Assembly: GCA_021463465.1 (NCBI GenBank)
Contig: JAJTYH010000003.1
Span: 75,869 to 139,868, forward strand
Direction: 5' to 3'
Source of the DNA: a bacterium
Lineage (GTDB): Bacteria; Patescibacteriota; Dojkabacteria; SC72
DNA length: 64,000 nt
Below the pieces are notes generated by a model. It was not told the DNA's origin. It saw nothing but the letters and a program-made list of their open reading frames with translations, and did not search any database. Positions 2,589 to 17,033 of the stretch are shown here, piece by piece (within the stretch, counting starts at the first letter, position 1; every line of letters starts with the position of its first letter). The translations under genes and the position numbers were made by a program.

Positions 2589-3172
2589 ATATCTCTAATC
2601 TCAGCAAAGGAGGCAAAAGATCGAACCCCTACACTCCTCGCACTTTCTAAATTAAGTAGCGAATCATCTACATACACTACCTCCTTTATCTTCAAACCAT
2701 TCTGGTCAATAACATTTTTAATTGCCTCACTGTCAGGCTTAACTAACCCGGTTTCGCAACTAAAATACGCTCCGTCTGTATTGCCAAAGATTTCAGGAAA
2801 GGCTTCTTTGTAGAACTGCGTTCTCTCTTTGAAATTATTTGAAAGGATATAAACTTTCTGACCATTAGCTCGCGCTTCTTTGCAAAAATCTATTACATCA
2901 CTCTGGAGTTTTTCGCCACTAAACCACCAGTCAAAAAAATCTTTTTCATCAACTTCAATTCCCCACCTCTCTAAATATGGTTTCCACAATGAAAAAGTCC
3001 TGGGAGCACCAGGTAGTTTAACAATATCTTGTATGGTTTTTAGGGCTCCCAACACTTCTTCAATAGGAGCATTCCACTTCTCCTTCATTCGGTTTGAAAG
3101 ATAGTCGCTTTGTACAAAAATTCCATTGAGATCAAGAATATATGCCTTTATCATATTACTTTTTAATTGCAC
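2585..3172 (-). CDS. HAD-superfamily hydrolase (subfamily IA-like)
   Basis: Motif I-like ILDLNGIF, motif II ILSN, Lys in GLVKPD and motif IV VYVDDS. The second Asp of motif I is Asn. Confidence 0.5.
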   Translation of the reverse strand: MQLKSNMIKAYILDLNGIFVQSDYLSNRMKEKWNAPIEEVLGALKTIQDIVKLPGAPRTFSLWKPYLERWGIEVDEKDFFDWWFSGEKLQSDVIDFCKEARANGQKVYILSNNFKERTQFYKEAFPEIFGNTDGAYFSCETGLVKPDSEAIKNVIDQNGLKIKEVVYVDDSLLNLESARSVGVRSFASFAEIRDI

Positions 3173-3881: not shown

Positions 3882-4912
3882 TTTTTTAGATTCTTTAAAT
3901 CATTTAAAAATTCTTGTACTTTTTCCTCTTTGGTAGCCCAAGAGGTAACAAGTCTAATGCTGGAGTTTTCCGAATCAATCTTAGTCCAAATATAAAAGCC
4001 ATAAAGTTCTGAAAGTCTGGTAATCAGCGAATTTGGAAAGATCGGAAAGATTTGATTTGTAGTCGAATGAGTTTCAAATGAGTAACCTAACCCCTCTATA
4101 CCTTGAACTAGCTTTGACGCCATTTGGTTAGCGTGCTTCCCTAACTCAAAATATAAACCGCTTTCGAACAAAGCCAAAAACTGCGAACCTAAGACCCGCC
4201 CTTTAGCTAATAATCCTCCCCGCTGTTTTATATGAAAACGAAAATTCTTTTTTAGAGCGTCATTTACCAACACAATGGCCTCACCTATTAAAGCTCCATT
4301 TTTGGTACCACCAATATAGAAAGCATCTACATAATTAACAAGTTGCTTCATGTTTAGGTCAGATTCTCCACTCATCAATCCACTTGCTAACCTTGCACCA
4401 TCCATATATAGGTAAAGTCCTTTACTTTTACAAAACTCTGAAAGAGCTTTCAATTCAATTTCTTTGTATATCGTTCCTAGCTCAGTGGAATTCGAGATGA
4501 AGACAACTCTAGGCATTACAGTATGCTCATCTTCGTATTCAGACAACCCTTGTGCAACAAGTTCCGGAGTAAGCTTACCGTCAGGCACATTAACTGTAAT
4601 TACTTTATGGCCAGTAGCTTCAATTGCCCCAGTCTCATGCCTATTTATATGGGATGACTTCGCCGCTATAACTCCTTCGTAAGGCATAAGAATTGAAGCA
4701 AGAACAATTAAGTTGGCTTGGGTCCCTCCTGCGATAAAGTGAACATCAACATCTTCTCTACCTAATTCTGACTTGATAAGCGATTCTGCCTTAATGCAGA
4801 AAGAATCCTGACCATACCCCAATTCCTGCTGTAAATTTGTAGATTGAAGCAATTCAAGTACTTTAGGATGACCCCCTTCTGAATAGTCGTTTAGGAAACT
4901 GTATTTGTTCAT
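3878..4912 (-). CDS. PLP-dependent threonine aldolase / beta-eliminating lyase family enzyme
   Basis: FLNDYSEGGHP start, GGTQANL, MDGARL and a GGTKNG (PLP Lys) region. Confidence 0.6.
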   Translation of the reverse strand: MNKYSFLNDYSEGGHPKVLELLQSTNLQQELGYGQDSFCIKAESLIKSELGREDVDVHFIAGGTQANLIVLASILMPYEGVIAAKSSHINRHETGAIEATGHKVITVNVPDGKLTPELVAQGLSEYEDEHTVMPRVVFISNSTELGTIYKEIELKALSEFCKSKGLYLYMDGARLASGLMSGESDLNMKQLVNYVDAFYIGGTKNGALIGEAIVLVNDALKKNFRFHIKQRGGLLAKGRVLGSQFLALFESGLYFELGKHANQMASKLVQGIEGLGYSFETHSTTNQIFPIFPNSLITRLSELYGFYIWTKIDSENSSIRLVTSWATKEEKVQEFLNDLKNLKN

Positions 4913-6168
4913 TTAGAGTTAAAGTATTTATCTAAAATTTGAAAAACTCTTTCCCAAGTATACTCCTTAATGAGTTTAGCGTATCCAGCCTTACCCATTT
5001 GTTCACGAAGATCTTGATTATTGAGGAGCTCCTCGATTCTATTCGCTAAACCTTCTACATCATCAAAATTAACCAGATACCCATCCTTACCATCGGAGAT
5101 AACTTCACCTATTGCTTCAATGTTCCCTCCTATCACAGGCTTTTTATTAGCCCATGCCTCAAGATATACAATTCCAAGAGCATCACTTTTAGAAACCATT
5201 GAAAATACATCTCCGGCACTGAGAACGTTAAACTTCTCTTGATCAGACGGGGAATCCAGGTTAATTGTATTTGCCTTAACCATCTCACTCTGTTTCTTCC
5301 AAAATTCTTCAAACTTCAGAGTAGATGAGCCTACCAAGACTAATTTGGCTTTAACTCCTATTTTCCACAGCTTCTCCATAGCTTTGACCAAAGTTAGCAC
5401 TCCTTTCTCCTGCACTTTAGCAGCAATTGTAAATACAATCGGTTCAGTTACGGAATATTTCTTTCTAAACTCCTCACCGTCCCCACTTATTACCTTACCC
5501 ACATCAATACCCACTCCTACCTTCTCAAATTTCTCATCAGTTACCTCCATTCCCCCTTCTTTCATAAACCTTTGTATCGCTCTTCGTTCGGCATCAGTGT
5601 GCACAAAAATTTTATCGGCATCTCTATAAAACTGTCGGCCAACCGGATCAAAATACTTTTTGTACAAAGGGTCAGATTTATCAGTACCTAAGTGTGTTGA
5701 AGAGTGTATATAAAACTTGGCACCAGTCTTCCTGGCGATAGCACGGGCTATATACATCAGCGAAAAGTATGGCATTGTCTGAACTCTAACTACATCATAC
5801 TTTGGGAGGTTGGGATTGAATATTTGCATCCACATTTCAAAACAGGTAGGTGGTGTACCAAGTATTCTTAAGAAAGGAATCGGATTATGAACAAGCAAGT
5901 ACCTAACAGCTTTGTTAATGAAGAGATTATTCATCAAAAAGGGAGTTGTCTTAAACCTCCTTATATGAACATTGTTGTGAATTTCTTCTAATAAATCGAA
6001 CTTTCTGAGTCCAGGAAACCAAATTGCATCAATCTCATCAGCATCGGTTGTCCAAAGATCCACTTGATTGTCAGAATTGCTTGCAGTCCACTCTGCAATC
6101 GTATGCATCATTGCTTCAGCTCCCCCATACGCAGGCCAGTACCTTGGGGTTATATGCAAAATTCTCAT
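4909..6168 (-). CDS. Glycosyltransferase, GT-B fold (family 4-like)
   Basis: C-terminal EAWANKKPVIGGNIEAIGEVISDGKDGYLV matches the EX7E/GT1 motif. Length is 419 aa. Confidence 0.75.
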   Translation of the reverse strand: MRILHITPRYWPAYGGAEAMMHTIAEWTASNSDNQVDLWTTDADEIDAIWFPGLRKFDLLEEIHNNVHIRRFKTTPFLMNNLFINKAVRYLLVHNPIPFLRILGTPPTCFEMWMQIFNPNLPKYDVVRVQTMPYFSLMYIARAIARKTGAKFYIHSSTHLGTDKSDPLYKKYFDPVGRQFYRDADKIFVHTDAERRAIQRFMKEGGMEVTDEKFEKVGVGIDVGKVISGDGEEFRKKYSVTEPIVFTIAAKVQEKGVLTLVKAMEKLWKIGVKAKLVLVGSSTLKFEEFWKKQSEMVKANTINLDSPSDQEKFNVLSAGDVFSMVSKSDALGIVYLEAWANKKPVIGGNIEAIGEVISDGKDGYLVNFDDVEGLANRIEELLNNQDLREQMGKAGYAKLIKEYTWERVFQILDKYFNSK

Positions 6169-6217
6169 ATACCTATTCTACCTCATATTAAGGAGATATA
6201 TTAGCCGAATAACTGGC

Positions 6218-6673
6218 TTACTTACTTAAGCTGACAGTTGTACCCAACTCAGAGAGAGGAGCACATACCGTTACTCTTCCGCTTTCGTTTTGGACTATGT
6301 TGTAACCTGTACCGTTAGTAGACCTGCTTTTTGGGTCAACGGGCATAGATGGAAGATATTCTAATTGACTACTAAAACCACTTAAAACGACTTTGTTAGA
6401 ACAATCGGCTGCACCTGTTTTACAAAGCTCATACTCACTTCTCGTGCACTCATCAGAGACAGGAATACCTTCAGGAAGGGTTCCATTGTTATCTCCTGCA
6501 TACTGCGTGAGGGCATTTAAAATTTCAGTAACATCGTCGGTTCTTTGGTCGTTTCGTTTTTGAGAGACCATTTTAGATGGATTGAAATACAGAACAATGA
6601 TACTCATTACAGCCAAGATTAGGATTACTGTAACTCCCATCTCCACGGAACTAAAGGCTTGATATCTCTTCAT
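6218..6673 (-). CDS. Type IV pilin/pseudopilin-like protein (prepilin-type N-terminus)
   Basis: N-terminus KRYQAFSSVEM followed by a hydrophobic helix (VTVILILAVMSIIVLYF), class III signal-like with Glu at +5. C-terminal Cys pairs. Confidence 0.45.
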   Translation of the reverse strand: MKRYQAFSSVEMGVTVILILAVMSIIVLYFNPSKMVSQKRNDQRTDDVTEILNALTQYAGDNNGTLPEGIPVSDECTRSEYELCKTGAADCSNKVVLSGFSSQLEYLPSMPVDPKSRSTNGTGYNIVQNESGRVTVCAPLSELGTTVSLSK

Positions 6674-6760
6674 TACTTTCTCAATGAATTTAGACAGTAA
6701 AATGTAACATAATTACGAAAGTTTATTAAACCAACTTTCCAATTCTTATATAAAATAAAA

Positions 6761-7858
6761 TTAAAGTTCTTTTGGATCTACTTTCAAGATCATATCATCA
6801 CTCTGACTAGGTGATCCTCTACCATCTTGATTAGATGTCATGAAGTATAAGAATCCATCGGGACCAACTGTTACTCCTCTCAATCGCCCATAAACCCGTG
6901 AAAATTTCTCTTCCAAACTAATTGGGGCAACCTCTGTCTTATACAATGTCTCCCCTCTTAAGCCTGGGAAATACAAATTTCCATCAACAAATGCAAGTCC
7001 AGAAGGTGCCCACGTTATATTAGCTGTCGAATGTAAAGTCGGAGACTCCATACCTTCCTGAGTTTGTGAACCTTCAATAATTGGCCAACCGTAATTCTTA
7101 CCTGCTTCAATAAGGTTCAACTCATCAAAGCCAGAAGTGATACCTGATCGTCCATGTTCAGTTGACCATAACCTACCCTGATTATCCCAGGCTAAACCTT
7201 GAGGGTTACGGTGACCGTAGGAGTACACTGGACTATTAGGGAAGGGATTATCTGAAGGCACTGAACCACTGTCATTTACTCTTAAAATCTTACCTCCAAG
7301 GAAGTTTATTTCTTGAGCTCTCTCGCGTTCTTCCGCATCACCAACAGTGATATAGAGCTTTCCGTCGGGACCAAATTTAATCCTACCTCCATCATGATTT
7401 TTTGAAGCAGGGAGATTATTCAAAATAATATCCCTATTCACTAGTTTATCACCCCTCAACTCATATCTATTCACCTGATTAATTAAAGTACCATCAGGTT
7501 GAACAGTCATATAAAGGTAAATATAAGAGTTTTTCTCAAAATCAGGGTGAAGTGCCATTCCAAGGAGCCCTCCTTCTCCAATATGAACGACTTCGGAGAT
7601 TTTAGTCACACTCCTATCCTTCCCTATTTTTAGGAGGCTTCCAGGGCGTTCAGTTACAAGCATATCGCCGTTTGGAAGGAAAGCAATTTCCCAAGGTATG
7701 GTCAAATTTGTAGCAACTATATCCACACCCCGATCTTTTACAGGAATTTCCTCCAGTTTATCGGCTCGTCTATCACCGGCTGTTTTGAAATACCAGAAGG
7801 CTAACGCAAAGATAACAAGGAGAATTAGGGAAAAAACTAAGAGTAGCCTTTTAAGCAT
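6761..7858 (-). CDS. Soluble quinoprotein glucose/sorbosone dehydrogenase family (beta-propeller), membrane-anchored
   Basis: GPDGKLYITVGD, GHRNPQGLAWD and NYGWP motifs, with an N-terminal TM helix. Start moved to ATG 7856-7858 (MLKRLLLVF...) because the ORF-track start at 8017 overlaps a tRNA gene. Confidence 0.65.
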   Translation of the reverse strand: MLKRLLLVFSLILLVIFALAFWYFKTAGDRRADKLEEIPVKDRGVDIVATNLTIPWEIAFLPNGDMLVTERPGSLLKIGKDRSVTKISEVVHIGEGGLLGMALHPDFEKNSYIYLYMTVQPDGTLINQVNRYELRGDKLVNRDIILNNLPASKNHDGGRIKFGPDGKLYITVGDAEERERAQEINFLGGKILRVNDSGSVPSDNPFPNSPVYSYGHRNPQGLAWDNQGRLWSTEHGRSGITSGFDELNLIEAGKNYGWPIIEGSQTQEGMESPTLHSTANITWAPSGLAFVDGNLYFPGLRGETLYKTEVAPISLEEKFSRVYGRLRGVTVGPDGFLYFMTSNQDGRGSPSQSDDMILKVDPKEL

Positions 7859-7925
7859 GTTTAATAGTAGCACACCGTAAAGTTGTAGAGAATGAATGTC
7901 GGTGTGAGTTCGAAATTTTTCCAAC

Positions 7926-8015
7926 TGGCGGAGAGGCAGGGATTCGAACCCTGGATGGAGTTTCCCCCATAACGCTTTTCGAAAGCGTCTCATTCGACCA
8001 CTCTGACACCTCTCC
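7926..8015 (-). tRNA. tRNA-Ser (anticodon CGA), 90 nt, long variable arm, encoded CCA
   Basis: Reverse complement GGAGAGGTGTCAGAGTGGTCGAATGAGACGCTTTCGAAAAGCGTTATGGGGGAAACTCCATCCAGGGTTCGAATCCCTGCCTCTCCGCCA. Anticodon stem ACGCT/AGCGT, loop TTCGAAA, T-loop TTCGAAT. Confidence 0.85.
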
Positions 8016-8060
8016 AATACGGATAATTATATCTAATACAATGGAATGAAGATATACACA

Positions 8061-8804
8061 CTACTTTACTTTAGGGCGAATGCCGAATTTGAGAAAATTT
8101 CTTAATCTCATTATAGACTCTTTATATTTGCCCTTAGCCTGGGCTATCAAGCTTCTCGCTAACTCAATCTGACTATATCTCACCTGATTAAGGTAACCTG
8201 TTTCATTTTTAAGTTTTTTCAGAAGAGAGTCGGATTTTTTCACATAATAAGTGGCTTTATCATAGTCTTGCAGCCTCACATAAAGTTCCATCAAATGTGT
8301 GCTTACAGTTAACCTATGCATTAAATTATCTGTAGAATCAATTACCAGCTCAGCAGAAAGTAGTGCTTTTTCAGCATTTTCATCGTCATTTATCTCTGAA
8401 AGAATCCTGCCTTTCTTGGCAAGATTTAAACCTAAAGTTTGTAATACTTTCTGATCTTCAATTTCGAGCAGTGCCTCATTAATAGTTTTAAGAGCCTTCT
8501 CATATTTTCCCAAATGCTCATACAAAGAAGCTGTATCCCTCAAAACATTAGAGGATTGAACTCTATCCCCTAGTTTTCTGTATATTTGCAAAGCCTCCTT
8601 GCCTGCTTTTTCTGCTTCTTTAAGGTCCATTAATTGTTTATAGCAGAGTTGCCTCCAAAATAGAGCCCTCCCTCTAAACCACAAGTCCTTCTCCGAAAGT
8701 TCTTGAATTATTTGCTCTATGATGGACAGAGCTTTTAATGGGTCCTGTTCCGCAAGAAGCTTATCTACCTCTAAGAATAAAGATTGAGCAACCTCTTCTT
8801 TCAT
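8061..8804 (-). CDS. Hypothetical protein, helical/TPR-like repeats
   Basis: No catalytic motifs. Repeated amphipathic helical segments (e.g. ALQIYRKLGD, LYEHLGKYEKAL) suggest TPR-like repeats. Confidence 0.3.
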   Translation of the reverse strand: MKEEVAQSLFLEVDKLLAEQDPLKALSIIEQIIQELSEKDLWFRGRALFWRQLCYKQLMDLKEAEKAGKEALQIYRKLGDRVQSSNVLRDTASLYEHLGKYEKALKTINEALLEIEDQKVLQTLGLNLAKKGRILSEINDDENAEKALLSAELVIDSTDNLMHRLTVSTHLMELYVRLQDYDKATYYVKKSDSLLKKLKNETGYLNQVRYSQIELARSLIAQAKGKYKESIMRLRNFLKFGIRPKVK

Positions 8805-8810
8805 TAAAGC

Positions 8811-9494
8811 TCAAACCTCCTCCAACTTAATGTATTCCCCAAAACTTCTTTTCTCCAACCAATGCTCTTTTCTAATCTCTTTATAAAGCATTTTGTCTTG
8901 TAAAATAACGAATATTGGAGAAATATCTTTCTTGTCTACAATTAAAAGTAATCTAGCAGGAAGCCTCAACTTCGTATCAATATGAAGCATATACTCTTCC
9001 TCTTTCTTGGTAAACCAAAACTTATCCAACATATACCATTCGTAATGCTTATCCATAGTTTCAATACCCTTTGACGTAATCAAATGCTTAACCATAATCG
9101 GAGGAGTTGTACCAGCGACATAAACGAAGAATAGTAAAGCTATCAAAGCACCCATCAGCCCAAAATGGCCTAATACTGCAAGATAAACAACAAAAACCAT
9201 ACTCAAACCAACAACGGTAGTATAAGTTTTCATATCAAGAGGAAACTTAAACCGGATTGGGGATTCCCATTCAAACAGATTAATTTTCTGAACTACTTTC
9301 TTTTCCTCTTCTTCTTTTTCTAATACAACCTTACCGTCTTTAATTTCTTCTCTCCTTATGTTTTTCTGTTTCTCTATAGCAGCTTTCTTCAACTTCTCAA
9401 CCTCAGCCTGCTTTTCCCTTAAATCACTCTCTCCAGATAGATATTTTGCCAAACTACTTAACTCTTTTTCCAATCGATTCTGCTTCTTTTCCAT
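8811..9494 (-). CDS. Hypothetical membrane protein with N-terminal coiled coil
   Basis: K/E-rich coiled-coil N-terminus, two hydrophobic helices, C-terminal soluble region. No recognisable domain. Confidence 0.3.
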   Translation of the reverse strand: MEKKQNRLEKELSSLAKYLSGESDLREKQAEVEKLKKAAIEKQKNIRREEIKDGKVVLEKEEEEKKVVQKINLFEWESPIRFKFPLDMKTYTTVVGLSMVFVVYLAVLGHFGLMGALIALLFFVYVAGTTPPIMVKHLITSKGIETMDKHYEWYMLDKFWFTKKEEEYMLHIDTKLRLPARLLLIVDKKDISPIFVILQDKMLYKEIRKEHWLEKRSFGEYIKLEEV

Positions 9495-9498
9495 AGAC

Positions 9499-9873
9499 TT
9501 AGAATACTTTTAAAATATTAAGGATATACAGGATTATAGCGGAAGAAGTAAAACCGTAAAATATAGGAAGAACATTGTACATGCTTAAAATCATAGCTAA
9601 GATAGCGCAGAACCCAATCCCAATCCCCCATTTAAGAGACCTCGAGTGATGAGGAAACTCTTTCCAGCCGCAAGTCAAAAACTTCTCAATCAGAAGTATT
9701 ATTGTAGCAACAACAGACTCAACAAAGAAAAACACTAAAAAAAGTACCGTCACTACGTTATACCAATTAATATTTCCCTGTTCTAAAGGCACGAAATAAC
9801 TAAGAGAAAAGAAATATAACAGGAGGATTACGCTTAGTACTGCTATACCCGCTTGTGTTAGAAGATATTTCAT
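9499..9873 (-). CDS. Hypothetical small polytopic membrane protein
   Basis: 124 aa with about 4 hydrophobic helices. Confidence 0.3.
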   Translation of the reverse strand: MKYLLTQAGIAVLSVILLLYFFSLSYFVPLEQGNINWYNVVTVLFLVFFFVESVVATIILLIEKFLTCGWKEFPHHSRSLKWGIGIGFCAILAMILSMYNVLPIFYGFTSSAIILYILNILKVF

Positions 9874-9948
9874 AAGATGCCATATATGGGTCTTTGGACG
9901 TTAATTTGTGACCCTTAAATTCAAAATATTAAGTTTAACTTTAACCTA

Positions 9949-10626
9949 ATGAATATACTCATTATAGAAGATTCGCCGAATGTTGCACATCTTGTGGGTT
10001 CAATAATAAGAAGCAAAGGGCATATTGAAAAACATCTCAAAAGTCCTGAGATTTCTCTTCAATATTTTAAAGATAATCTATTTGAAGTGGTAATAATAAA
10101 TACCAACCTTCAATACGGCACTCACAAACTAATCCGGGAAATACGAAGGTATGCTGAGAATACTTTTATCATAGGTGTTTCCACTAAGTCTACCTGGAAG
10201 GAAAAAGTCGAGTTTTTAAATGCGGGAGGAGATGATGTACTGGATTACCCTTTTCCTATGCAAGAGTTAGAAGCTCGGATAAATTCACTACTAAGAAGAC
10301 CGAAGAAAAACAATCAAGGGATATTAAAGGTTAAGAATGTAAGTATTAATACCGATTTAAAACAGGTAAATGTAGGGGCAAAACCAGTTCCACTTCGAAG
10401 AAGAGAATTTGCTCTCCTTGAATATATGGTTAAGAATAAAGAGCGAACTATAACCAGAGCAGAACTGCTTGACCATGTATGGGATTACCGAAGGTCAACC
10501 GGTTCTAACACCGTAGATGTCCACGTTAAAAGGTTAAGAGATAAATTGATGGATAAAGATTTGATAGAAACGGTGCACGGTTTTGGTTATGCAATGCGAG
10601 ATAAGAAGATCCCTAAAGCATCATAG
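9949..10626 (+). CDS. OmpR/PhoB-family response regulator with atypical (non-phosphorylatable) receiver domain
   Basis: Receiver plus winged-helix (TVDVHVKRLRDKL) architecture. Alignment to PhoB places Asn at the phospho-acceptor Asp53 position (VVIINTNL vs LILLDWML) and Tyr at Lys105 (DDVLDYPF vs DDYITKPF). Confidence 0.7.
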   Translation: MNILIIEDSPNVAHLVGSIIRSKGHIEKHLKSPEISLQYFKDNLFEVVIINTNLQYGTHKLIREIRRYAENTFIIGVSTKSTWKEKVEFLNAGGDDVLDYPFPMQELEARINSLLRRPKKNNQGILKVKNVSINTDLKQVNVGAKPVPLRRREFALLEYMVKNKERTITRAELLDHVWDYRRSTGSNTVDVHVKRLRDKLMDKDLIETVHGFGYAMRDKKIPKAS

Positions 10627-11743
10627 GCATAATCAAGTGCACGAAAGTATCATCACCTTTGATCTTGAATACACCTGGTTTGACAGGTTCTGAGCTTTCA
10701 AAAACAATCTCTTCTGCACCTATGTTATTAGCCATATCAGAAAGAAATTTAGAAGAGAAAGCCATCTTGATAGCATCGCCTTCTACCTTTCCTGCTACCA
10801 CACTCTTATTACTTCCGACATCAGAAAGAGTCGCAGACATGACTACATTGCTACCTTTAGGATCAATTTCTACGATAATCTTATTACCCAAAACGCTTCG
10901 AGCAATAATATTGGTAACCTTAAGTGAATTAGTAAATTCACTTGTACTTAATTGAACCTGAGTCTTAAAGACAGAAGGCAGGATCTGCTTGTAATCAGGA
11001 TACTGGCCATCAATTAAACGAGAGATAATGTCAACATCGTTATATCTGAAAAGGACTTGATTGCGATCTTCAATAACATAAACTTCCACGTCATCCTTGC
11101 CATCCTGCCCTGCAAATTCAGTAAGAACAAATGCAAGCTCTTGCATTGCCTTAACAGGAACTAAGAAGTGAGAATTCTCTTTAACTTCCGAAGAAAGCTT
11201 GATACTTTGCTTAGAAAGTCGAAGGCCATCGGCAGCTACAAAAGAAGCCGTTTTACCCTCCAACTCGATTTTAATACCAGTAAGTACAGGTTTAACATCG
11301 TCAGAAGCGGCAGCAAAAGCAACCCTATTAATAGATAACAACAAATCCTCTTTATTGAGTTTAAGAACAGGCTTTCCTCCTCCAGCAGTTGCTACTTTAG
11401 GATAATCATCAGCAGGAATTGTATGGAACTGAGCTGAATTGTTTACTGTACTAACATCTAGTACCTGTTTATCCAAAACAACATCAACCTTTTCAGAAGG
11501 AATACTGTTAACAAACTCAGAAATCTGTTTAGCAGGAACTGTAACTGCCCCTTCTGACTTACTCTCAATCCCAATCCATGTATTAATCCCTATCTCCAAA
11601 TCGGTAGCTGTCATTACCAACTTACCCTTCTGAACTTCAATGAGAATATTGCTTAAAATAGGAAGTCCAGGTTTACTGTTAACAACTCTACTTACCACAT
11701 TTAGATACTTGGCAAAAGTGTCTTGATTACAGGAGAATTGCAT
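10613..11743 (-). CDS. dnaN: DNA polymerase III subunit beta (sliding clamp)
   Basis: 376 aa. N-terminus MQFSCNQDTFAKYLNVVSRVV...LPILSNILIEV is typical of DnaN. Immediately downstream of dnaA. Confidence 0.85.
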   Translation of the reverse strand: MQFSCNQDTFAKYLNVVSRVVNSKPGLPILSNILIEVQKGKLVMTATDLEIGINTWIGIESKSEGAVTVPAKQISEFVNSIPSEKVDVVLDKQVLDVSTVNNSAQFHTIPADDYPKVATAGGGKPVLKLNKEDLLLSINRVAFAAASDDVKPVLTGIKIELEGKTASFVAADGLRLSKQSIKLSSEVKENSHFLVPVKAMQELAFVLTEFAGQDGKDDVEVYVIEDRNQVLFRYNDVDIISRLIDGQYPDYKQILPSVFKTQVQLSTSEFTNSLKVTNIIARSVLGNKIIVEIDPKGSNVVMSATLSDVGSNKSVVAGKVEGDAIKMAFSSKFLSDMANNIGAEEIVFESSEPVKPGVFKIKGDDTFVHLIMPMML

Positions 11744-12194
11744 ATTTTAGGACTTCACAAATTTAAACTCTTGGGGCTTAGTTCAGTATACATGATTGAC
11801 CTAGGGGTATCAAAGATTTTTTGTTAATCTTTAATTCCTTGAGTGTATCTAGAGATATATAATATAAAACAGTAGTAGTTGTAGTAGAGAGTGTAGATAT
11901 GTCTATAACTTTTAATTAAACGCGGGATTAAAAGTTTTCTCCCCTATTTTGAACTGTGTATAGAATTTTCCTAAGTAAACTGTGTAAAGTATAAAGAAGG
12001 TTTATGTGACAATTAAACTTTCAGGTGGATAACTTTTGAGGATAAATCTCCTGAATAATATCTTTATTTGTGGGTAATTAAATTAGAAAAAACCTTTAAT
12101 TAACTACAATAAACGATATTACGTGGTTTTCCTTTATGGATAACTCGCCAATTTATCCTTGAGTTATTCAAAGTTATCCACTTACTTATCCACA
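11744..12194. promoter_or_regulatory. Candidate chromosomal replication origin (oriC): DnaA boxes, GC cluster, TAG-triplet (DnaA-trio-like) run and AT-rich candidate DUE
   Basis: DnaA-box matches at 12024-12032, 12037-12045, 12069-12077, 12135-12143, 12174-12182 and 12186-12194 (the last is a perfect TTATCCACA). TAG-repeat at 11873-11896, CGCGGG at 11921-11926, AT-rich stretch 11821-11870. Confidence 0.6.
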
Positions 12195-13604
12195 TCACGC
12201 AAGAAGTGCTTTGCACTTTTCAATCTTTTCTTTGAAACGAACCTCTTTTTCAATCATTTCACCTATCTTCTCACAAGCATGAAGTACAGTGGTATGGTCT
12301 TTGCGATTAACTTCCTTTGCGACTTTCTCAAGAGGTAGTTGCAACTCTTCTCTTAAAAGATACATGATGACTTGTCTAGCTCTTGCTAAGTATGAAGTTC
12401 GACTTTTTCCCTTGATCTCTTTTTGAGTTACATCGAAAACTTCACAAACCGCGTCTATAACTCTCTCAGGCTTAATTCTCTTGCGCTTACTTTCAATATC
12501 AAACTGTAGATATTTTGCGATATTTTCGGCATTAGGCTCTTCTCCAAACTTACTCATAGACAAAATCTTAGTAATTGCTCCCTCTAATTCACGTACGTTA
12601 CTTTCGATGTTTTTAGCTATCAATTCTAGAATCTCAGTTTCAATACTGACCCCCTTCTCTTCCAATAGATACTTAAGAATAGCCATTCTCGTTTCAATGT
12701 CCGGAGATTGGATATCAGCTACCATTCCTCCCTCAAACCTTGATCTTAAACGATCCGTTAGATTTTTTATTTCTCTTGGTGGACGGTCTGCTGCCAATAC
12801 AATCTGCTTATTGGCCAGATAGAGTGAATTAAAGGTATTGAAAAGCTCTTCTTGAGTTTTGGCGTAAGTTTCTACGAACTGAATGTCATCAATAATTAAA
12901 AGATCAATCTCCCTGTACTTTTTTCTGAACACTTCATTAGTTTTCCCTCTAATTGAATCAATCATTTCGTTTAAGAACTGTTCGATTGGTACGTACATCA
13001 CTTTCTTATCTGGATATTTTTGAAGGATTTCATTACCAATAGATTGCATGAGATGTGTCTTGCCTACTCCGGTGGGTCCGTAGTAGAAGACTGGGTTATA
13101 AGCCCTGCCTAGATCCGCCACAACTGCCTCTGCCACCGCGTAAGCGAGTTTGTTGTGTGCACCAACCACAAAGTTGGCGAAACGGTATTTGGGATTAAGC
13201 TGTGACCTTCTGGATTTGTTTTCTGGGTCGACTGCTTTTGTTGGCATTTGGAAGATTGAAACCGTCTCAGAAGTGTCTTCTGGAGTTATATCTTTAATAA
13301 ATGATGAACGTACGGTGAAAACTAGTTCTAAGTTCTGTCCTGTAGCTGAGAGTAATGATTTTCTAATCACTGCGCGATGGTACATTTCTAACCATTCACG
13401 TTTAAAGCCCTGGTCGCATGAAATCTCTGCCATGCCATTCTCAATCTTTGATAAGTACACGCCACCAAACCATGAGTCGTATTCTCTTTTGGATATGTAG
13501 AGGCGAATATTCTCAGATACGATTTTCCAGATATCATCGATATCAAAAGTATTCTGAGGTGTTTTTGCGGCTTTTAAATTCGGCTTTTCTATATCAGCAC
13601 TCAT
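12195..13604 (-). CDS. dnaA: Chromosomal replication initiator protein DnaA
   Basis: Walker A GPTGVGKTH, AAA+ core, and a C-terminal domain IV signature (VIMYLLREELQLPLEKVAKEVNRKDHTTVLHACEKI). Confidence 0.95.
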   Translation of the reverse strand: MSADIEKPNLKAAKTPQNTFDIDDIWKIVSENIRLYISKREYDSWFGGVYLSKIENGMAEISCDQGFKREWLEMYHRAVIRKSLLSATGQNLELVFTVRSSFIKDITPEDTSETVSIFQMPTKAVDPENKSRRSQLNPKYRFANFVVGAHNKLAYAVAEAVVADLGRAYNPVFYYGPTGVGKTHLMQSIGNEILQKYPDKKVMYVPIEQFLNEMIDSIRGKTNEVFRKKYREIDLLIIDDIQFVETYAKTQEELFNTFNSLYLANKQIVLAADRPPREIKNLTDRLRSRFEGGMVADIQSPDIETRMAILKYLLEEKGVSIETEILELIAKNIESNVRELEGAITKILSMSKFGEEPNAENIAKYLQFDIESKRKRIKPERVIDAVCEVFDVTQKEIKGKSRTSYLARARQVIMYLLREELQLPLEKVAKEVNRKDHTTVLHACEKIGEMIEKEVRFKEKIEKCKALLA

Positions 13605-13670
13605 AATCTAAAAGGATTAATGTTTGAGGGGGGCGGTACCAAAAACTAGACAATTCTTATTTATCAGATT

Positions 13671-13702
13671 TGTGGATAACTTGTAAAGGGGGTTGTGGAT
13701 AA
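13671..13702. promoter_or_regulatory. Two perfect DnaA boxes (TGTGGATAA at 13671-13679 and 13694-13702) in the dnaA upstream region
   Basis: Direct repeat TTGTGGATAAC x2 within the 142-bp gap upstream of dnaA. It overlaps a candidate TTACAA-17-TAAATA promoter on the minus strand, which would allow autoregulation. Confidence 0.55.
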
Positions 13703-13746
13703 CCTCGTTATCAAGGCTTTCGGGTTCACTCTTTTTGCCGTAGATA

Positions 13747-15942
13747 TTATTTTTTTAGTCCTAGCTGTTCGAATACGTTAAGGCTTTGAGTTCTCTTCGC
13801 AGTCTTAACTTTCTGTTTAATTGGAATCTTTACGGTGAAAACGGAACCTTTTCCTGGCTCGCTTTGAACATCAAACTTTCCTCCGTGTTTCTCTACAATC
13901 CCAATACTTACATATAGACCAAGACCCGTTCCTCCTGGCCTGGTTACTAGATGTTTTTCCGCAGTGTCGGCTCTATAAAACTTTTCTCCAAGGTGTTTCA
14001 ATCCCTCTTTGGAAATACCTACACCACTGTCTTTTATCTCTATTATATAACTTCCTTTCTCTTTAGAAAGTTCTACTTGGATCTCACCTTCGTGTGTGTA
14101 TTTAACTGCGTTACTTATAAGATTATCGAAAACCTCAAGCATTCGGGTTTTATCGATCTCAATCTCCCAAGCTTCTGCTCCCTTTGGAGTTTTAAATAAA
14201 AACTTTAGTCCTTTTTTGTTGATGTCGTGAATGTGCGCTTCGTAGCTTTCCCTTAAAGTTTCAACGATTTTAAAAGTCTCAATGCTAAGCTCCAGTTTAT
14301 TCTGATCTAATTTGGTCGCACCAAGCAGCGAATTTATAAGTCTCCCTTCTCTCAGAATCGCAGAGCTAATGTTATTAATGTAATTGTCTAAGGTAGAAAG
14401 TAATTTAGAACCTTTGAGCTTTTGTATCATTAGTTCAAATTGAAGCCGAATGATACTAATAGGTGTTCTTAGTTCGTGGCCCATGATATCAATCATGTCC
14501 CTTTCTCTTTGTTGTGCAGCAAGCAATAGTTCATATTTCTCATTGATTTCTTTAGTTTGATTTTTTACTTTCTGCTCAAGTTCTAAGTTGAATTTAGTAA
14601 CTTCTGAATAAAGGTCGGCTCGAGATATGCTGATTGAAGCATTTTGAGCCAGTAGTTGGATTAATTCATACTCTTTCGATTCTAAGGAGATATTCCCTCC
14701 TGAAAGCTTCACTAAACCGAAAATGCCCTTATCTTTTAATAAGGGTATTATGAGGATAATTTTCTTTTCAATAAGTGTTCGGAAGTATTTTTCTAGCCAC
14801 GGGGCAAAGTTCTTGTTTGAATAACTTCTGTCAATAACAATTTCAGGAGTGATTGGTTCTGTTGAATCATTCTCTTTCCACCATTTCATTGTAAGTTCAG
14901 TCACAGAATCTTTTGAATTTGGGGTGAACTCAATTTTTATTTCAGTTCGAGGAAACATTGACATCAAGGTTTTTTTTAACTCTTCCTTGATTTTTGGGCG
15001 TTCGAAAATTGTTGCAGTTTTAGAGTTGAATTCGAGGACTTGTCCTTTTAATCGCTCAAATCCTACCTGTGTGGATTTAATGAATTCGTTTCCTATCAGA
15101 TATAGGATAGATAGCAGAGTTATTGCTGAAAGAACAACTCCTAAGGTACTTATTTCATCTTGATATCTTTGAAATATGTATACAGCGGAAGTAGTTAAAA
15201 TAGACAAAAGTATTATTGTTAGGATTCTAACAATATCCTCGCGGATATCAGCAAGGAAAGCTTTGATAAAAAACGTTTGGTTAGTAACGTAAAGAAGTAG
15301 CCCAAGGGAGATAAAAGCTGTTGGTCCATATTCAATTAGTCCTACTGCAGGAAAATAAGTGAGGCCAATTCCCAAGGAGACATACACAATTGCTAACGTA
15401 GTAACCAAAACAAATATTTGGCTACGCTGTGTCCGAGTGTAATTTTTGATGTTGCCGAACCAATGGGTAAGTGCAGTTATTAGTATAATGATGGCATAAA
15501 GGAGAGATACTGAATAAAACCCCCCAGGCGCATATTCGGCGGGGCCGTCCATAACAATTTTGAAGGCAGTAAGGTTATTGTCGGAATTTATTCCAAAAGC
15601 AAAGACTCCTGTAAGTAGGATAGTCCCTATAAGAATAAGGTTTACAAAAAGAGATCTTTTTCGATTGATGCTTTGAGGGAAAATAGATGCGATTCCTAAA
15701 AATGCTGACATGAAGTTCAATGGAAAAAGGATTGCTAGACGTGCTGAAGTTGAAGCTATCTCGTAATTCTTGGAAAGGTCCGCCACCGCATTTGTAATTA
15801 TCCATCCAAAAACCGTGAGTAGAAGATAGAGATAAAGCAGCTGTTCGGAACCTTTGAGATTCTGTCTCCGTTTAAGGAAAGAAAATAGGTTTATTCCCAG
15901 CGTAAGCAGTACGAAGGCGTAGATTATGTATAAATTGATCAC
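13747..15942 (-). CDS. Sensor histidine kinase with N-terminal polytopic (about 7TM) membrane domain
   Basis: About 7 hydrophobic helices in the first ~290 aa, an H-box MGHELRTPIS, and the HATPase_c G2 box GGTGLGLYVSIGIVEKHGG. Confidence 0.8.
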   Translation of the reverse strand: MINLYIIYAFVLLTLGINLFSFLKRRQNLKGSEQLLYLYLLLTVFGWIITNAVADLSKNYEIASTSARLAILFPLNFMSAFLGIASIFPQSINRKRSLFVNLILIGTILLTGVFAFGINSDNNLTAFKIVMDGPAEYAPGGFYSVSLLYAIIILITALTHWFGNIKNYTRTQRSQIFVLVTTLAIVYVSLGIGLTYFPAVGLIEYGPTAFISLGLLLYVTNQTFFIKAFLADIREDIVRILTIILLSILTTSAVYIFQRYQDEISTLGVVLSAITLLSILYLIGNEFIKSTQVGFERLKGQVLEFNSKTATIFERPKIKEELKKTLMSMFPRTEIKIEFTPNSKDSVTELTMKWWKENDSTEPITPEIVIDRSYSNKNFAPWLEKYFRTLIEKKIILIIPLLKDKGIFGLVKLSGGNISLESKEYELIQLLAQNASISISRADLYSEVTKFNLELEQKVKNQTKEINEKYELLLAAQQRERDMIDIMGHELRTPISIIRLQFELMIQKLKGSKLLSTLDNYINNISSAILREGRLINSLLGATKLDQNKLELSIETFKIVETLRESYEAHIHDINKKGLKFLFKTPKGAEAWEIEIDKTRMLEVFDNLISNAVKYTHEGEIQVELSKEKGSYIIEIKDSGVGISKEGLKHLGEKFYRADTAEKHLVTRPGGTGLGLYVSIGIVEKHGGKFDVQSEPGKGSVFTVKIPIKQKVKTAKRTQSLNVFEQLGLKK

Positions 15943-15947
15943 TTCCT

Positions 15948-17033
15948 CTATTTAAAAATTTTTGGGAAGGGTTTCATTTGGAATTGCTCAAATACTGAGG
16001 TATAGGCTCCGGCTTGTTCTATAGCAATGACCTCGCCTACTCTGAGGTCGCTTGGCAGTAAAACCCTTTGCCTAATAATATCATATCCGTCGCAAGAATA
16101 GCCTCCTAGTTTGAAGTATTTTAACTTCCCTCTTTTGCTCATGTTTTGAACAGTAACAGGGTATTCAAATCCTTCTAACGCTTCAATTACTCCCCCGAAA
16201 ACGCTAGTGTCCAAGACTGCGAGTGGGGGTCTTTTGTAAGGTTTAATGTCAATTACTTTGGTATATAAGGTCATAACATTTGCTACCATTGCTCTTCCTG
16301 GCTCCAAATATAATTTCAAATTTGGATGTCTTGTTTTTAGTTTGACGATTCGAGCGATTAACTTGTCAATATAAAAATCTAAAGGTTTAACCTCTGGTGA
16401 GTATTTTGCTGGTATTCCTCCTCCTAAATTCAATCTTTCTATCACAATTCCCTTTCTTCCAGCGTAATCAATACAAGACAGCGCCGTCTTTATTGCGGTG
16501 TCCCATGAACTGAGATCTATATTTTGTGAGCCAATATGAAAAGAAACTCCCGCAATATTCCAACCGTTCTTACTGGCCTTACTAATGATTTTTTTGAAAT
16601 AGGTTTCTGTCATCCCAAATTTCTCAGACAGGTTGAAGGCCGCGGCTTTATTTGAAGTTCCTATTCTTGCAAAGATCAATGGATTTTTGACATGTCGGTA
16701 TATCTTTAGAATTTCTTCTTCTGAGTCGACTGTAAATATCTTAACGCCCTTTTTTGCTGCATACTCTACGTCGTCTTCCATCTTTGATGGAGCTGAAAAC
16801 GAGATGTTCTCTGGAGTGGATCCTGATTTCAGTGCGAGTTCTATTTCTTCTGCCGATGCCACATCAAACCCAAACCCACTTTTAATTAACGAATTTACAA
16901 TATCGAAATAGTTATTGGCTTTTAATGCGAAAAGGATATCAACCCCTAAACTTTGGATTTTTGTGAACTGAGCAATGTTTTCTCTAAAAGATTTGTCGTC
17001 AAAGATAAAAAATGGAGTTTTATAGTTTTTCAT
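15948..17033 (-). CDS. Type III (alanine-racemase fold) PLP-dependent decarboxylase, Orn/DAP/Arg/carboxynorspermidine decarboxylase family
   Basis: FALKAN (PLP Lys), HIGSQ and EPGRAMVA motifs. 361 aa. Confidence 0.7.
   Translation of the reverse strand: MKNYKTPFFIFDDKSFRENIAQFTKIQSLGVDILFALKANNYFDIVNSLIKSGFGFDVASAEEIELALKSGSTPENISFSAPSKMEDDVEYAAKKGVKIFTVDSEEEILKIYRHVKNPLIFARIGTSNKAAAFNLSEKFGMTETYFKKIISKASKNGWNIAGVSFHIGSQNIDLSSWDTAIKTALSCIDYAGRKGIVIERLNLGGGIPAKYSPEVKPLDFYIDKLIARIVKLKTRHPNLKLYLEPGRAMVANVMTLYTKVIDIKPYKRPPLAVLDTSVFGGVIEALEGFEYPVTVQNMSKRGKLKYFKLGGYSCDGYDIIRQRVLLPSDLRVGEVIAIEQAGAYTSVFEQFQMKPFPKIFK

What the first reader, a model, noticed from the sequence alone, without database searches (positions are those of the whole stretch)
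9949..10626. Orphan OmpR-family response regulator lacking the phospho-acceptor Asp and the conserved Lys, encoded convergently against dnaN next to the origin
By alignment with PhoB, the receiver domain keeps the acidic pair (IIEDS) but has Asn at the Asp53 position (VVIINTNL) and Tyr at the Lys105 position (DDVLDYPF), so classical phosphotransfer is implausible. Such atypical regulators (for example HP1043 and HP1021 of Helicobacter, where HP1021 binds oriC) act independently of phosphorylation. This one sits convergently against dnaN, with a 14-nt overlap of the 3' ends, and about 1 kb from the oriC candidate. The only histidine kinase in the window (13747-15942) is on the other side of dnaA and has no adjacent regulator. 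A DnaA-box-competing or origin-associated regulatory role is speculation but testable.
Basis: partly seen in the sequence, partly recalled or inferred. Interest (0 to 1): 0.55.

Follow-up and report, generated by a model that had tools for sequence, protein, structure and literature searches.

The report
Degenerate response regulator fixed beside dnaN
This is a real gene for an OmpR-type DNA-binding regulator whose signal-receiving domain can no longer be phosphorylated; it is kept next to the replication genes in a whole lineage of tiny-genome bacteria (Dojkabacteria), but nothing found here shows that it acts on the replication origin.

Summary
ORF 9949-10626 (+) encodes a 225-aa Response_reg + Trans_reg_C protein. 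Asn51 sits at the phospho-acceptor Asp position and Tyr100 at the conserved Lys position. Its 3' end overlaps dnaN by 14 nt, 1.1 kb from a DnaA-box-rich oriC candidate.

It is one member of a Dojkabacteria (WS6, CPR) family. The hallmark of the family is the aromatic residue at the Lys position (Tyr in 119 of 120 homologues). The acceptor position varies (N 74, D 42, S 3, G 1), and Asn arose several times. The receiver's Pfam score is about half that of canonical CPR regulators. The alpha4-beta5-alpha5 face and the DNA-binding helices are strongly conserved. This fits a phosphorylation-independent, probably dimeric, transcription factor of the known pseudo-receiver kind (HP1043, CosR, RitR, ChxR).

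Linkage to dnaN is conserved: 55 of 56 genomes, with overlapping stop codons in 46. Linkage to a divergent pair of lineage-specific membrane-protein genes is tighter still, and I found no candidate binding motif shared with oriC.

A related histidine kinase recurs between dnaA and rpmH/rnpA in the window's subclade, so "orphan" needs qualifying. The origin-regulator idea remains untested speculation. Verdict: a new member of a known kind, of moderate interest.

The parts
9949..10626 (+). Gene for a 225-aa OmpR/PhoB-type regulator with a pseudo-receiver domain
   Evidence: ORF; Pfam Response_reg 43.8 bits and Trans_reg_C 84.5 bits; more than 120 homologues at 44-71% identity; AlphaFold pLDDT 85 with a (beta/alpha)5 domain plus a winged helix
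9949..10299 (+). Degenerate receiver domain (residues 1-117). The acid pair E7-D8 is kept, and S78 sits at the Thr position. N51 (codon 10099-10101) replaces the acceptor Asp, V97 replaces the switch Tyr, and Y100 (codon 10246-10248) replaces the Lys.
   Evidence: Alignments; alpha4-beta5-alpha5 (residues 83-116) conserved at 0.78-0.96 against 0.46-0.51 for beta3/alpha3
10321..10596 (+). Winged-helix DNA-binding domain (residues 125-216). Helices alpha2 and alpha3 and the loop between them (residues 170-200, sequence AELLDHVWDYRRSTGSNTVDVHVKRLRDKLM) are nearly invariant in the family.
   Evidence: Trans_reg_C residues 145-215; invariant columns; conservation 0.84-0.93
10613..10626 (.). 14-nt convergent overlap of the regulator and dnaN 3' ends. 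The regulator's C-terminal K-A-S-stop is read antisense to DnaN's M-M-L-stop.
   Evidence: Sequence; overlaps of 4-56 nt in 46 of 55 orthologous loci, 14 nt being the commonest
10613..11743 (-). dnaN (DNA polymerase III beta clamp), convergent with the regulator
   Evidence: Three DNA_pol3_beta Pfam domains
11744..12194 (.). oriC candidate between dnaA and dnaN: six DnaA boxes at 12024-12194, a TAG-trinucleotide run at 11871-11899 and an AT-rich stretch at 11850-11869
   Evidence: DnaA-box words dominate the orthologous intergenic regions, e.g. TCCACA z = 44.5
12195..13604 (-). dnaA
   Evidence: Bac_DnaA 209.9 bits and Bac_DnaA_C
13747..15942 (-). Multi-pass membrane histidine kinase (HisKA + HATPase_c; His in MGHELRTP). 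Possible former or current partner of the regulator; no regulator is adjacent to it.
   Evidence: Pfam. A 62%-identical orthologue lies at the same place in L086. Relatives lie in the dnaA-rpmH/rnpA interval in L002, L085, L087, L090 and next to dnaN in L051, L053, L054; the relative in L089 lies elsewhere in the genome.
9874..9948 (.). 75-nt divergent intergenic region between the regulator and the up124/up227 genes. It holds the family's conserved non-coding blocks and is the likeliest site of the two promoters and of any operator.
   Evidence: words of the AAAACCTAGAGAA block and AATTAA are enriched over shuffles
8811..9873 (-). Two lineage-specific membrane-protein genes, up124 (9499-9873) and up227 (8811-9494), divergent from the regulator in every locus that reaches far enough
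   Evidence: up227 found by tblastn in 53 of 56 loci; the other three contigs start at the regulator. 97 homologues, of which every one that a source names is a Dojkabacteria or candidate division WS6 hypothetical protein; no precomputed Pfam domain.

Best explanation
The gene encodes a phosphorylation-independent OmpR/PhoB-type transcription factor. Its receiver domain is a pseudo-receiver that has lost the chemistry of phosphotransfer but kept its fold and its alpha4-beta5-alpha5 face. It is the window's copy of a regulator inherited throughout the Dojkabacteria. An ancestral two-component regulator first lost the conserved Lys (to Tyr) and the Thr/Tyr switch pair. After that the acceptor Asp and the second metal-binding Asp drifted repeatedly to Asn, Ser, Gly or Lys. 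The protein most likely binds DNA as a dimer formed through the conserved alpha4-beta5-alpha5 surface, using an almost invariant recognition helix. Its activity would be set by its amount or by a protein partner, not by an aspartyl phosphate.

What is shown: the domain architecture, the substitutions, their distribution across the family, the pattern of conservation, and the synteny.

What is inferred: independence from phosphorylation, dimerisation, and the targets. My best guess for the primary target is the 75-nt divergent promoter region it shares with the up124/up227 membrane-protein genes (autoregulation plus control of that operon). I read its position against dnaN and oriC as an inherited arrangement that overlapping stop codons make hard to break.
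For: - **Architecture and fold:**
- **Active-site residues:** the window protein reads E-D-N-S-V-Y, against E/D-D-D-T-Y-K in all 24 canonical CPR comparators.
- **Family pattern:** Tyr at the Lys position in 119 of 120 homologues. The acceptor is N 74, D 42, S 3, G 1. The second acidic residue is D 46, N 39, K 30.
- **Extent of the family:** at 50% clustering, about 26 representative clusters carry Tyr, Phe or (once) His at the Lys position and score 223-343 bits; 24 of the first 25 hits are such. Canonical EDDTYK sequences begin at about 205 bits.
- **Order of events:** in the NJ tree the Tyr clade is monophyletic. Asp is retained in deep branches and Asn appears in several separate lineages.
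- **Selective degeneration:** Pfam Response_reg scores 34-52 bits in the family and 86-87 bits in canonical CPR regulators, while Trans_reg_C scores are equal at 78-92 bits.
- **Where selection acts:** top-residue frequency is 0.78-0.96 for alpha4-beta5-alpha5, which keeps the counterparts of PhoB R91, V92, L95, D100, D101, E111, A114 and R115. It is 0.46-0.51 around beta3/alpha3 and 0.85-0.93 for the DNA-binding helices.
- **Gene neighbourhood:** no kinase gene is adjacent to the regulator in any of the 56 orthologous loci of the genome scan or in the further loci fetched by protein look-up. The divergent up124/up227 genes are present wherever the contig allows, including L050, which has lost dnaN.
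- **Precedents:** pseudo-receivers are about 6% of bacterial receivers, and many dimerise without phosphorylation (PMC12632262). CosR carries D51N or D51S in thermotolerant Campylobacter species, which also lack the kinase CosS (PMC3938529).
Against: - No experiment of any kind; independence from phosphorylation is inferred from sequence only.
- Asn at the acceptor position can deamidate back to Asp in at least one receiver (cited in PMC4395418).
- About a third of orthologues keep Asp. A few keep the full acidic triad (L002, L003, L051, P0012, P0027), so some family members might still accept a phosphoryl group.
- An apparently intact kinase lies 3.1 kb away, and no other receiver is visible in the 64-kb window.
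- No operator was identified. The conserved blocks in the divergent region may simply be the two promoters.
- Dimerisation could not be modelled with the tools allowed.
Confidence: 0.6

Rival explanations
1. Replication-linked regulator. The protein binds oriC or the dnaA/dnaN control regions, as HP1021, MtrA or CtrA do. Alternatively, its convergent, terminator-less transcription into dnaN modulates clamp and initiator expression. On this reading its fixed place next to the origin is functional.
For: dnaN is convergent and adjacent in 55 of 56 orthologous genomes, with dnaA next wherever the contig allows. The genes further out on both sides vary. The regulator gene is the only nearby gene that faces the leftward replication fork, 1.1 kb from the DnaA-box cluster. 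No terminator-like site lies between the convergent genes. Response regulators that bind oriC are known (PMC8266642, PMC4285127).
Against: No word apart from DnaA-box and TAG-run words is strongly enriched in the oriC regions. Nothing distinctive is shared between the regulator's own upstream region and oriC, and no 10-11-bp direct-repeat signature was found. Four genomes tolerate insertions of 0.3-2.1 kb between the regulator and dnaN. One genome (L050) has separated them while keeping up124/up227. Overlapping stop codons leave no neutral breakpoint, so the linkage can persist without any function. Whole origin regions are often syntenic in small genomes.
Confidence: 0.12
2. Still wired to the origin-proximal histidine kinase. 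The regulator and the kinase 13747-15942 are the two halves of an old two-component system separated by dnaA-dnaN. The kinase would control the regulator either by residual phosphotransfer (in Asp-retaining orthologues, or after Asn deamidation) or by phosphorylation-independent binding.
For: The kinase keeps its His box, N box and G boxes. It has a 62%-identical orthologue at the same position in L086. Related kinases (33-37% identity, with a shared C-terminal tail) lie between dnaA and rpmH/rnpA in L002, L085 and L087, a further homologue (P0445) lies there in L090, and related kinases lie beside dnaN in L051, L053 and L054. None of these kinases has any other regulator next to it. Regulators in several of these loci keep the full acidic triad (L002, L086, L051). 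Allosteric control of regulators by kinases is documented (PMC4251995).
Against: The window protein lacks both the Asp and the Lys. The two largest clades of the family (ENN and EKD active sites) have no kinase within about 5 kb of dnaA. In L089 the kinase sits elsewhere, still with its decarboxylase and hypothetical neighbours. That suggests the kinase belongs to that module, not to the regulator. Retention of Asp does not track kinase proximity. The rest of the genome, where a canonical partner could lie, was not visible.
Confidence: 0.15
3. A decaying, non-functional remnant of a two-component regulator.
For: The active site is degenerate and the Pfam receiver score is halved.
Against: The ORF is intact in all 56 orthologous loci. 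There are 39 invariant columns among 41 sequences that are 43-66% identical to the window protein. The DNA-binding helices and the alpha4-beta5-alpha5 face are nearly invariant. The structure is predicted with confidence. The gene is retained in genomes of under 1 Mb.
Confidence: 0.03

Closest known systems
CosR of Campylobacter jejuni (essential OmpR-type regulator; PDB 8uvk, 8uvx)
   Same: OmpR/PhoB architecture. The acceptor Asp is replaced by Asn (C. jejuni, C. lari) or Ser (C. coli), while related species keep Asp together with a kinase (PMC3938529). That is the same D/N/S polymorphism within one orthologous family seen here. It ranks among the top structural matches.
   Different: Only 21-24% identity in the structural alignments. 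Whether CosR keeps the conserved Lys was not checked here; in this family the Lys is lost in every member. In the Campylobacter species that have it, cosS lies directly downstream of cosR. Here no kinase is ever adjacent to the regulator. CosR is not linked to dnaN.
HP1043 (HsrA) of Helicobacter pylori (PDB 2hqr)
   Same: An orphan OmpR-type regulator in a small genome, with a highly degenerate receiver. It acts without phosphorylation and is a constitutive dimer (PMC8345958, PMC12632262). phmmer E = 5e-11; Foldseek hit at rank 36.
   Different: The sequence match covers only residues 61-214. HP1043's degeneracy includes a deletion around the acceptor site (PMC3938529), whereas here the receiver matches the whole Pfam profile and carries point substitutions. 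The genomic contexts are unrelated.
RitR of Streptococcus pneumoniae (aspartate-less receiver; PDB 5u8k, 5vfa)
   Same: An OmpR-type orphan with Asn at the acceptor position. RitR has Lys at the second acidic position (PMC4395418), a change also seen in the EKD clade of this family.
   Different: RitR senses redox through Cys128 in the linker (title of the PDB entry). The window protein has no cysteine. RitR keeps a Tyr at the switch position; here it is Val.
HP1021 of H. pylori (atypical regulator that binds oriC)
   Same: An atypical orphan regulator for which a link to the replication origin has been shown (PMC8266642).
   Different: No specific sequence relationship was detected; it is not among the solved-structure hits. 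HP1021 works as a Cys redox switch. Binding to oriC is untested here, and no motif supports it.
Canonical RR-HK operons of other CPR bacteria (L057-L080)
   Same: The nearest sequence relatives outside the family, at 31-38% identity, with the same two-domain architecture.
   Different: They have the full E/D-D-D-T-Y-K site and a Response_reg score of 86-87 bits. In 22 of the 24 loci a histidine kinase lies immediately downstream on the same strand, and dnaN is not nearby.

Membership tests
OmpR/PhoB-family response regulator (architecture) | N-terminal receiver fold (PF00072) above Pfam's gathering score | tested here: met
   43.8 bits against a cutoff of 30.2, profile positions 1-111 of 111; (beta/alpha)5 fold predicted at pLDDT above 90
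OmpR/PhoB-family response regulator (architecture) | C-terminal winged-helix Trans_reg_C domain | tested here: met
   84.5 bits against a cutoff of 26.2; Foldseek TM 0.80-0.88 (normalised to the target) to the PhoB, YycF and GlnR effector domains
Canonical (phosphorylatable) receiver | All five conserved active-site residues (DD, D, T/S, K) | tested here: not met
   E7-D8 and S78 are present; Asp is replaced by Asn51 and Lys by Tyr100
Canonical (phosphorylatable) receiver | Y-T coupling pair (aromatic residue at K-3 plus Thr/Ser) | tested here: not met
   Val97 at K-3, and Val in 117 of 120 homologues
Canonical two-component system | Cognate histidine kinase in the same operon | tested here: not met
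   No kinase adjacent in the window or in any orthologous locus; the nearest is 3.1 kb away, beyond dnaN-dnaA
Pseudo-receiver / atypical response regulator (as defined in PMC12632262) | Recognised as a receiver by profile but lacking at least one of the five catalytic residues | tested here: met
Aspartate-less receiver (as defined in PMC4395418) | No Asp at the phospho-acceptor position | tested here: met
   Asn51 in the window protein. This is not a property of the whole family: 42 of 120 homologues keep Asp.
Pseudo-receiver / atypical response regulator | Activity independent of phosphorylation | not testable with these tools
   Needs phosphotransfer and DNA-binding assays
Constitutive-dimer atypical regulators (HP1043, ChxR, GlnR type) | Dimer through alpha4-beta5-alpha5 without phosphorylation | tested here: inconclusive
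   The interface residues are the best-conserved part of the receiver, but a homodimer could not be modelled or measured
HP1021-like origin-binding regulators | Specific binding to oriC | not testable with these tools
   Only indirect evidence: no recurrent non-DnaA-box motif or direct repeat in 45 orthologous dnaA-dnaN spacers
HP1021- or RitR-like redox switches | Regulatory cysteine(s) | tested here: not met
   The window protein has no Cys. The main clade of the family, however, has a co-occurring Cys78/Cys171 pair.
Named NCBIfam regulators (PhoB, MtrA, CtrA, RpaB, NblR and others) | Score above the equivalog cutoff | tested here: not met
   The best is PhoB at 127.9 bits against a cutoff of 296.2; all others are also far below their cutoffs

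The most novel reading that the evidence does not exclude
In Dojkabacteria the pseudo-receiver regulator is part of the origin module. It would sense a signal without phosphorylation, perhaps through the kinase family that recurs on the other side of dnaA, or through the up124/up227 membrane proteins. It would then tune dnaA-dnaN expression or initiation at oriC, either by binding there or by head-on, terminator-less transcription into the 3' end of dnaN. That would be a lineage-specific replication checkpoint in an ultra-small, probably host-dependent bacterium.
Probability: 0.1. Interest if true: 0.65.

Novelty: new member of a known kind. Interest (0 to 1): 0.36.

Why it matters
Pseudo-receiver regulators are common, yet the recent review PMC12632262 notes that how they are switched on and off is largely unknown. 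This family offers a clean natural series. The Lys was lost once, and then the acceptor Asp was lost repeatedly. Relatives with and without a nearby kinase can be compared. The genomes are so small that this may be one of very few transcription factors. If the conserved position against dnaN and oriC proved functional, it would give a first handle on how replication is regulated in Candidate Phyla Radiation bacteria. As it stands, the finding is a well-documented new family of a known kind. It is useful for annotation: these proteins should not be read as evidence of a working two-component pathway.

Tried and rejected
1. **Direct-repeat search.** I looked for an OmpR-style operator, meaning identical 5- or 6-mers spaced 10-11 or 20-22 bp apart, in 54 regulator-upstream regions and 45 dnaA-dnaN spacers. 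There was no excess over control spacings.
2. **Word enrichment against dinucleotide shuffles.**
   - In oriC only DnaA-box and TAG-run words stand out, plus ACTGCC-type words that are equally frequent in the dnaA-upstream regions, which often overlap a neighbouring gene.
   - The regulator-upstream region has its own AAAACCTAGAGAA and AATTAA blocks.
   - The only word enriched in both at z above 5 is TAGAGA, which in oriC belongs to the TAG run.
   - The upstream blocks look like two back-to-back promoters and cannot be assigned as an operator.
3. **Promoter and terminator scan of 9300-13900.** Counts were no higher than in shuffles, and nothing lies between the convergent genes.
4. **Rfam.** The only hit in the window is a tRNA at 25407-25493.
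5. **Structural neighbours.** I asked whether the predicted structure sits nearer to one atypical regulator than to canonical ones. It does not: PrrA, DrrD, KdpE, CosR, PmrA, RitR and HP1043 all match about equally, with TM about 0.45-0.6 limited by the relative orientation of the two domains.
6. **NCBIfam.** No named regulator family is reached.
7. **up227 and up124.** No informative domain was found. The only hit is a sub-threshold DUF5673 match, and the homologues are lineage-restricted hypothetical proteins.
8. **Literature.** I found no paper describing this family or a Dojkabacteria regulator next to dnaN.
9. **Pseudogene reading.** Rejected on conservation.
10. **Could not be done.** Homodimer modelling, measuring where Tyr100 sits in the model (coordinates are not exposed), and scanning complete Dojkabacteria genomes for other receivers.
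Full report

Yes. The ORF at 9949..10626 (+) starts with ATG and encodes 225 residues. Pfam finds Trans_reg_C at 84.5 bits and Response_reg at 43.8 bits, matching profile positions 1-111 of 111.

A phmmer search of solved structures returns 94 OmpR/PhoB-family chains, the best being DrrD 1kgs at E = 6e-29. The four printed alignments all put Asn51 (vviiNtnl) opposite the phospho-acceptor Asp. They put Tyr100 (ldYPF) opposite the Lys of the KPF motif. MAFFT alignments with E. coli PhoB (sequence recalled from memory, used only for numbering) and with 24 canonical CPR regulators give the same columns. The window protein reads E-D-N-S-V-Y at PhoB positions E9, D10, D53, T83, Y102 and K105.

The surroundings are also as described:
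- dnaN (10613..11743, -) overlaps the regulator's 3' end by 14 nt. dnaA is at 12195..13604 (-).
- The 451-nt spacer between them holds six DnaA boxes with at most one mismatch (12024-12194), a run of TAG trinucleotides (11871-11899) and an AT-rich stretch. Two perfect boxes lie upstream of dnaA.
- GC skew turns from strongly negative to about zero or positive near 10-14 kb.
- The window holds only this one receiver-containing gene and one histidine kinase.

**2. What is it?**

The protein is not a one-off. A search of 5.8 billion proteins gave 540 hits. The best 120 are 44-71% identical, and where named they come from Candidatus Dojkabacteria (WS6, Candidate Phyla Radiation).

Across these 120 the Lys position is Tyr in 119 and Phe in 1. 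The switch position is Val in 117. The Thr position is Cys 73, Ser 35, Ala 10. The acceptor position is free: Asn 74, Asp 42, Ser 3, Gly 1. So is the second acidic residue: Asp 46, Asn 39, Lys 30.

An exhaustive profile search of 1.84 billion representatives shows about 26 clusters at 50% identity that carry Tyr, Phe or (once) His at the Lys position. They score 223-343 bits, and 24 of the first 25 hits are such. Canonical EDDTYK regulators begin at about 205 bits.

A neighbour-joining tree makes the Tyr clade monophyletic. Asp is kept in the deep branches, in the window's sister lineages (L002, L003) and in the E-K-D clade. Asn appears in several separate lineages. The simplest history is that the Lys and the Thr/Tyr switch pair were lost once, and the acceptor then drifted.

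The degeneration is confined to the catalytic side of the receiver:
- Pfam Response_reg scores are 34-52 bits in the family and 86-87 bits in canonical CPR regulators. Trans_reg_C scores are the same in both, at 78-92 bits.
- Top-residue frequency is 0.46-0.51 for beta3, its loop and alpha3.
- It is 0.78-0.96 for alpha4, beta5 and alpha5. That surface keeps the counterparts of PhoB R91, V92, L95, D100, D101, E111, A114 and R115. From my knowledge of PhoB, KdpE and ArcA structures, these residues form the dimer interface of the OmpR/PhoB family.
- It is 0.85-0.93 for the DNA-binding helices.

AlphaFold gives a confident ordinary two-domain model (pLDDT 85). Foldseek matches canonical and atypical OmpR-family structures about equally. 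No curated NCBIfam regulator family is reached.

**3. Genomic context across the lineage**

A scan of 185,579 species genomes returned 80 loci. L001-L056 are orthologues at 36-57% identity. L057-L080 are canonical regulator genes from other CPR bacteria and a few other phyla. Of these 24 loci, 22 have a kinase directly downstream and none has dnaN nearby.

In the 56 orthologous loci:
- 55 have dnaN convergent directly after the regulator.
- The stop codons overlap in 46: by 14 nt in 17, 4 nt in 11, 56 nt in 8, and 6-50 nt in the other 10.
- Five have gaps of 0-80 nt.
- Four have insertions of 299-2134 nt. In L046 the insert is a 577-aa repeat protein.
- One (L050) has no dnaN or dnaA within 8 kb.
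- dnaA follows dnaN in nearly every contig that reaches far enough. In L051 a histidine kinase gene lies between them, and in L053 the kinase follows dnaN and no dnaA was found.

The regulator's C-terminal K-A-S, or a tail of up to 19 more residues, is simply the antisense reading of the conserved DnaN C-terminus ..MPMML.

On the other side, a small membrane-protein gene (up124) and a 2-TM protein gene (up227) are divergent from the regulator across a spacer of about 75-80 nt. This holds in every locus that reaches far enough, including L050. Both proteins are lineage-restricted hypotheticals. Genes beyond this five-gene block differ between genomes.

**4. The kinase**

The window's kinase (731 aa, multi-pass membrane N-terminus, intact His, N and G boxes) has a 62%-identical full-length orthologue at the same position in L086. 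That locus comes from the WS6 genome GW2011_GWF2_39_15, whose regulator reads E-D-D-A-V-Y.

Related kinases at 33-37% identity share a C-terminal tail motif but have different sensor parts. They lie between dnaA and rpmH/rnpA in L002, L085 and L087, and beside dnaN in L051, L053 and L054. A further homologue (P0445) lies in the dnaA-rpmH interval in L090.

In L089 (a genome of the E-K-D clade) the homologue is elsewhere. It is still next to an Orn/DAP decarboxylase and a hypothetical protein, as in the window. None of these kinases has a regulator beside it. The two large clades with the most degenerate active sites have no kinase within about 5 kb of dnaA.

So "orphan" is correct by the operon criterion. 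Even so, a kinase family recurs in the same origin-proximal neighbourhood. A past or present partnership cannot be excluded.

**5. How it most likely works**

The best-supported reading is a pseudo-receiver transcription factor. It folds like a receiver, probably dimerises through alpha4-beta5-alpha5 without phosphorylation, and binds a conserved DNA target with its nearly invariant recognition helix. This is the behaviour documented for HP1043, ChxR, GlnR and others (PMC12632262).

The D/N/S polymorphism within one orthologous family has a direct precedent in Campylobacter CosR. There the thermotolerant species carry N51 or S51 and also lack the kinase CosS. An N51D change did not restore phosphorylation (PMC3938529).

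The target is inferred, not shown. The 75-nt divergent region (9874-9948) is the default candidate. It contains the family's conserved non-coding blocks: words of AAAACCTAGAGAA score z = 6.5-13.3 against shuffles, and an AATTAA-type block lies about 25 nt before the regulator's ATG. These may simply be two back-to-back promoters.

**6. The origin hypothesis**

That is the one piece of evidence in favour.

Against it:
- The oriC spacers show only DnaA-box and TAG-run words. No 10-11-bp direct repeats appear, and no distinctive word is shared with the regulator's own upstream region.
- The linkage has been broken by insertions or rearrangement in five genomes without loss of the regulator.
- Overlapping stop codons leave no neutral place for a rearrangement, so they can preserve the adjacency passively.
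- The HP1021 analogy is loose. HP1021 is a cysteine redox switch (PMC8266642), and the window protein has no cysteine.

I put this reading at about 0.1.

**7. Novelty and verdict**

Pseudo-receiver regulators are about 6% of bacterial receivers (PMC12632262). About 2% of receiver-OmpR architectures lack the Asp (PMC4395418). Orphan atypical OmpR-type regulators in small genomes are well known. I found no paper on this family.

It is therefore a new, uncharacterised member family of a known kind. Three features make it more than routine:
- an invariant aromatic residue in place of the Lys;
- repeated secondary loss of the Asp;
- a fixed position overlapping dnaN beside oriC, with a recurrent kinase across the dnaA-dnaN pair.

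Interest is moderate (0.36).

Noticed in passing
window 11744-12194 and 13605-13746: A classical-looking oriC. Six DnaA boxes (at most one mismatch) lie at 12024-12194. A run of TAG trinucleotides that resembles DnaA-trios lies at 11871-11899, next to an AT-rich stretch at 11850-11869. Two perfect boxes lie at 13671-13702, upstream of dnaA. DnaA-box and CTACTA words are strongly enriched in the same spacer of 45 related genomes.
   Followed up: partly
window 13747-17033 and about 17045-18070; L086, L089: The histidine kinase travels with an Orn/DAP/Arg decarboxylase gene and a hypothetical gene of about 340 aa, both in the window and in distant relatives, even where the trio is far from dnaA (L089). 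In the window the trio sits between dnaA and rnpA, where most relatives have rpmH directly. The kinases share a C-terminal tail (N/D-I/V-F-E/K-R-L/M-G-F/L) but have very different sensor parts (7-TM, GAF, or none; 267-832 aa).
   Followed up: partly
Homologues P0036, P0054, P0068 and others (residues equivalent to window 78 and 171): In the main clade of the regulator family, a Cys at the receiver's Thr position and a Cys in the DNA-binding domain (..SRCELL..) co-occur in 72 of 73 sequences, and the second never occurs without the first. This may be a disulfide, redox or metal site, or simply shared ancestry. The window protein has neither Cys.
   Followed up: partly
window 10613-10626; L007, L010, L015, L016, L019, L022, L036, L055: The regulator's C-terminal tail is encoded antisense to the conserved C-terminus of DnaN. 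In one clade the regulator's stop codon is lost, and its reading frame runs 56 nt into dnaN, which adds a conserved tail (..KASSAL.QDEQNQD..).
   Followed up: yes
window 9874-9948 and the same spacer in about 50 loci: A conserved 13-mer, AAAACCTAGAGAA (read on the up124 strand), lies 8-12 nt before the up124-like start codon. Its component words score z = 6.5-13.3 against shuffles. Its position would fit a -10 element of a leaderless or near-leaderless mRNA. The window's version is diverged (AAAGACCCATATATGG). No Shine-Dalgarno-like sequence precedes the regulator's ATG in most loci.
   Followed up: partly
window 8811-9873 (-): up124 (a small multi-pass membrane protein) and up227 (a charged N-terminal region, two TM helices and a C-terminal domain with a sub-threshold DUF5673 match) are restricted to Dojkabacteria and are always divergent from the regulator. 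Their function is unknown.
   Followed up: partly
L046 2566-4299; L031: An insertion of about 2 kb between the regulator and dnaN. In L046 it encodes a 577-aa protein made of repeats of about 36 residues (..ALxFASxELRNDxxVVxxAVxxNG..). The insert in L031 was not examined.
   Followed up: no
window 9949-10626 relative to 1-13604: The regulator gene is the only gene in the first 16 kb or so on the + strand. It therefore faces the replication fork that would leave oriC leftwards. This orientation is conserved in all orthologous loci.
   Followed up: no
window 25407-25493 (-): A single tRNA is the only Rfam match in the 64-kb window.
   Followed up: no
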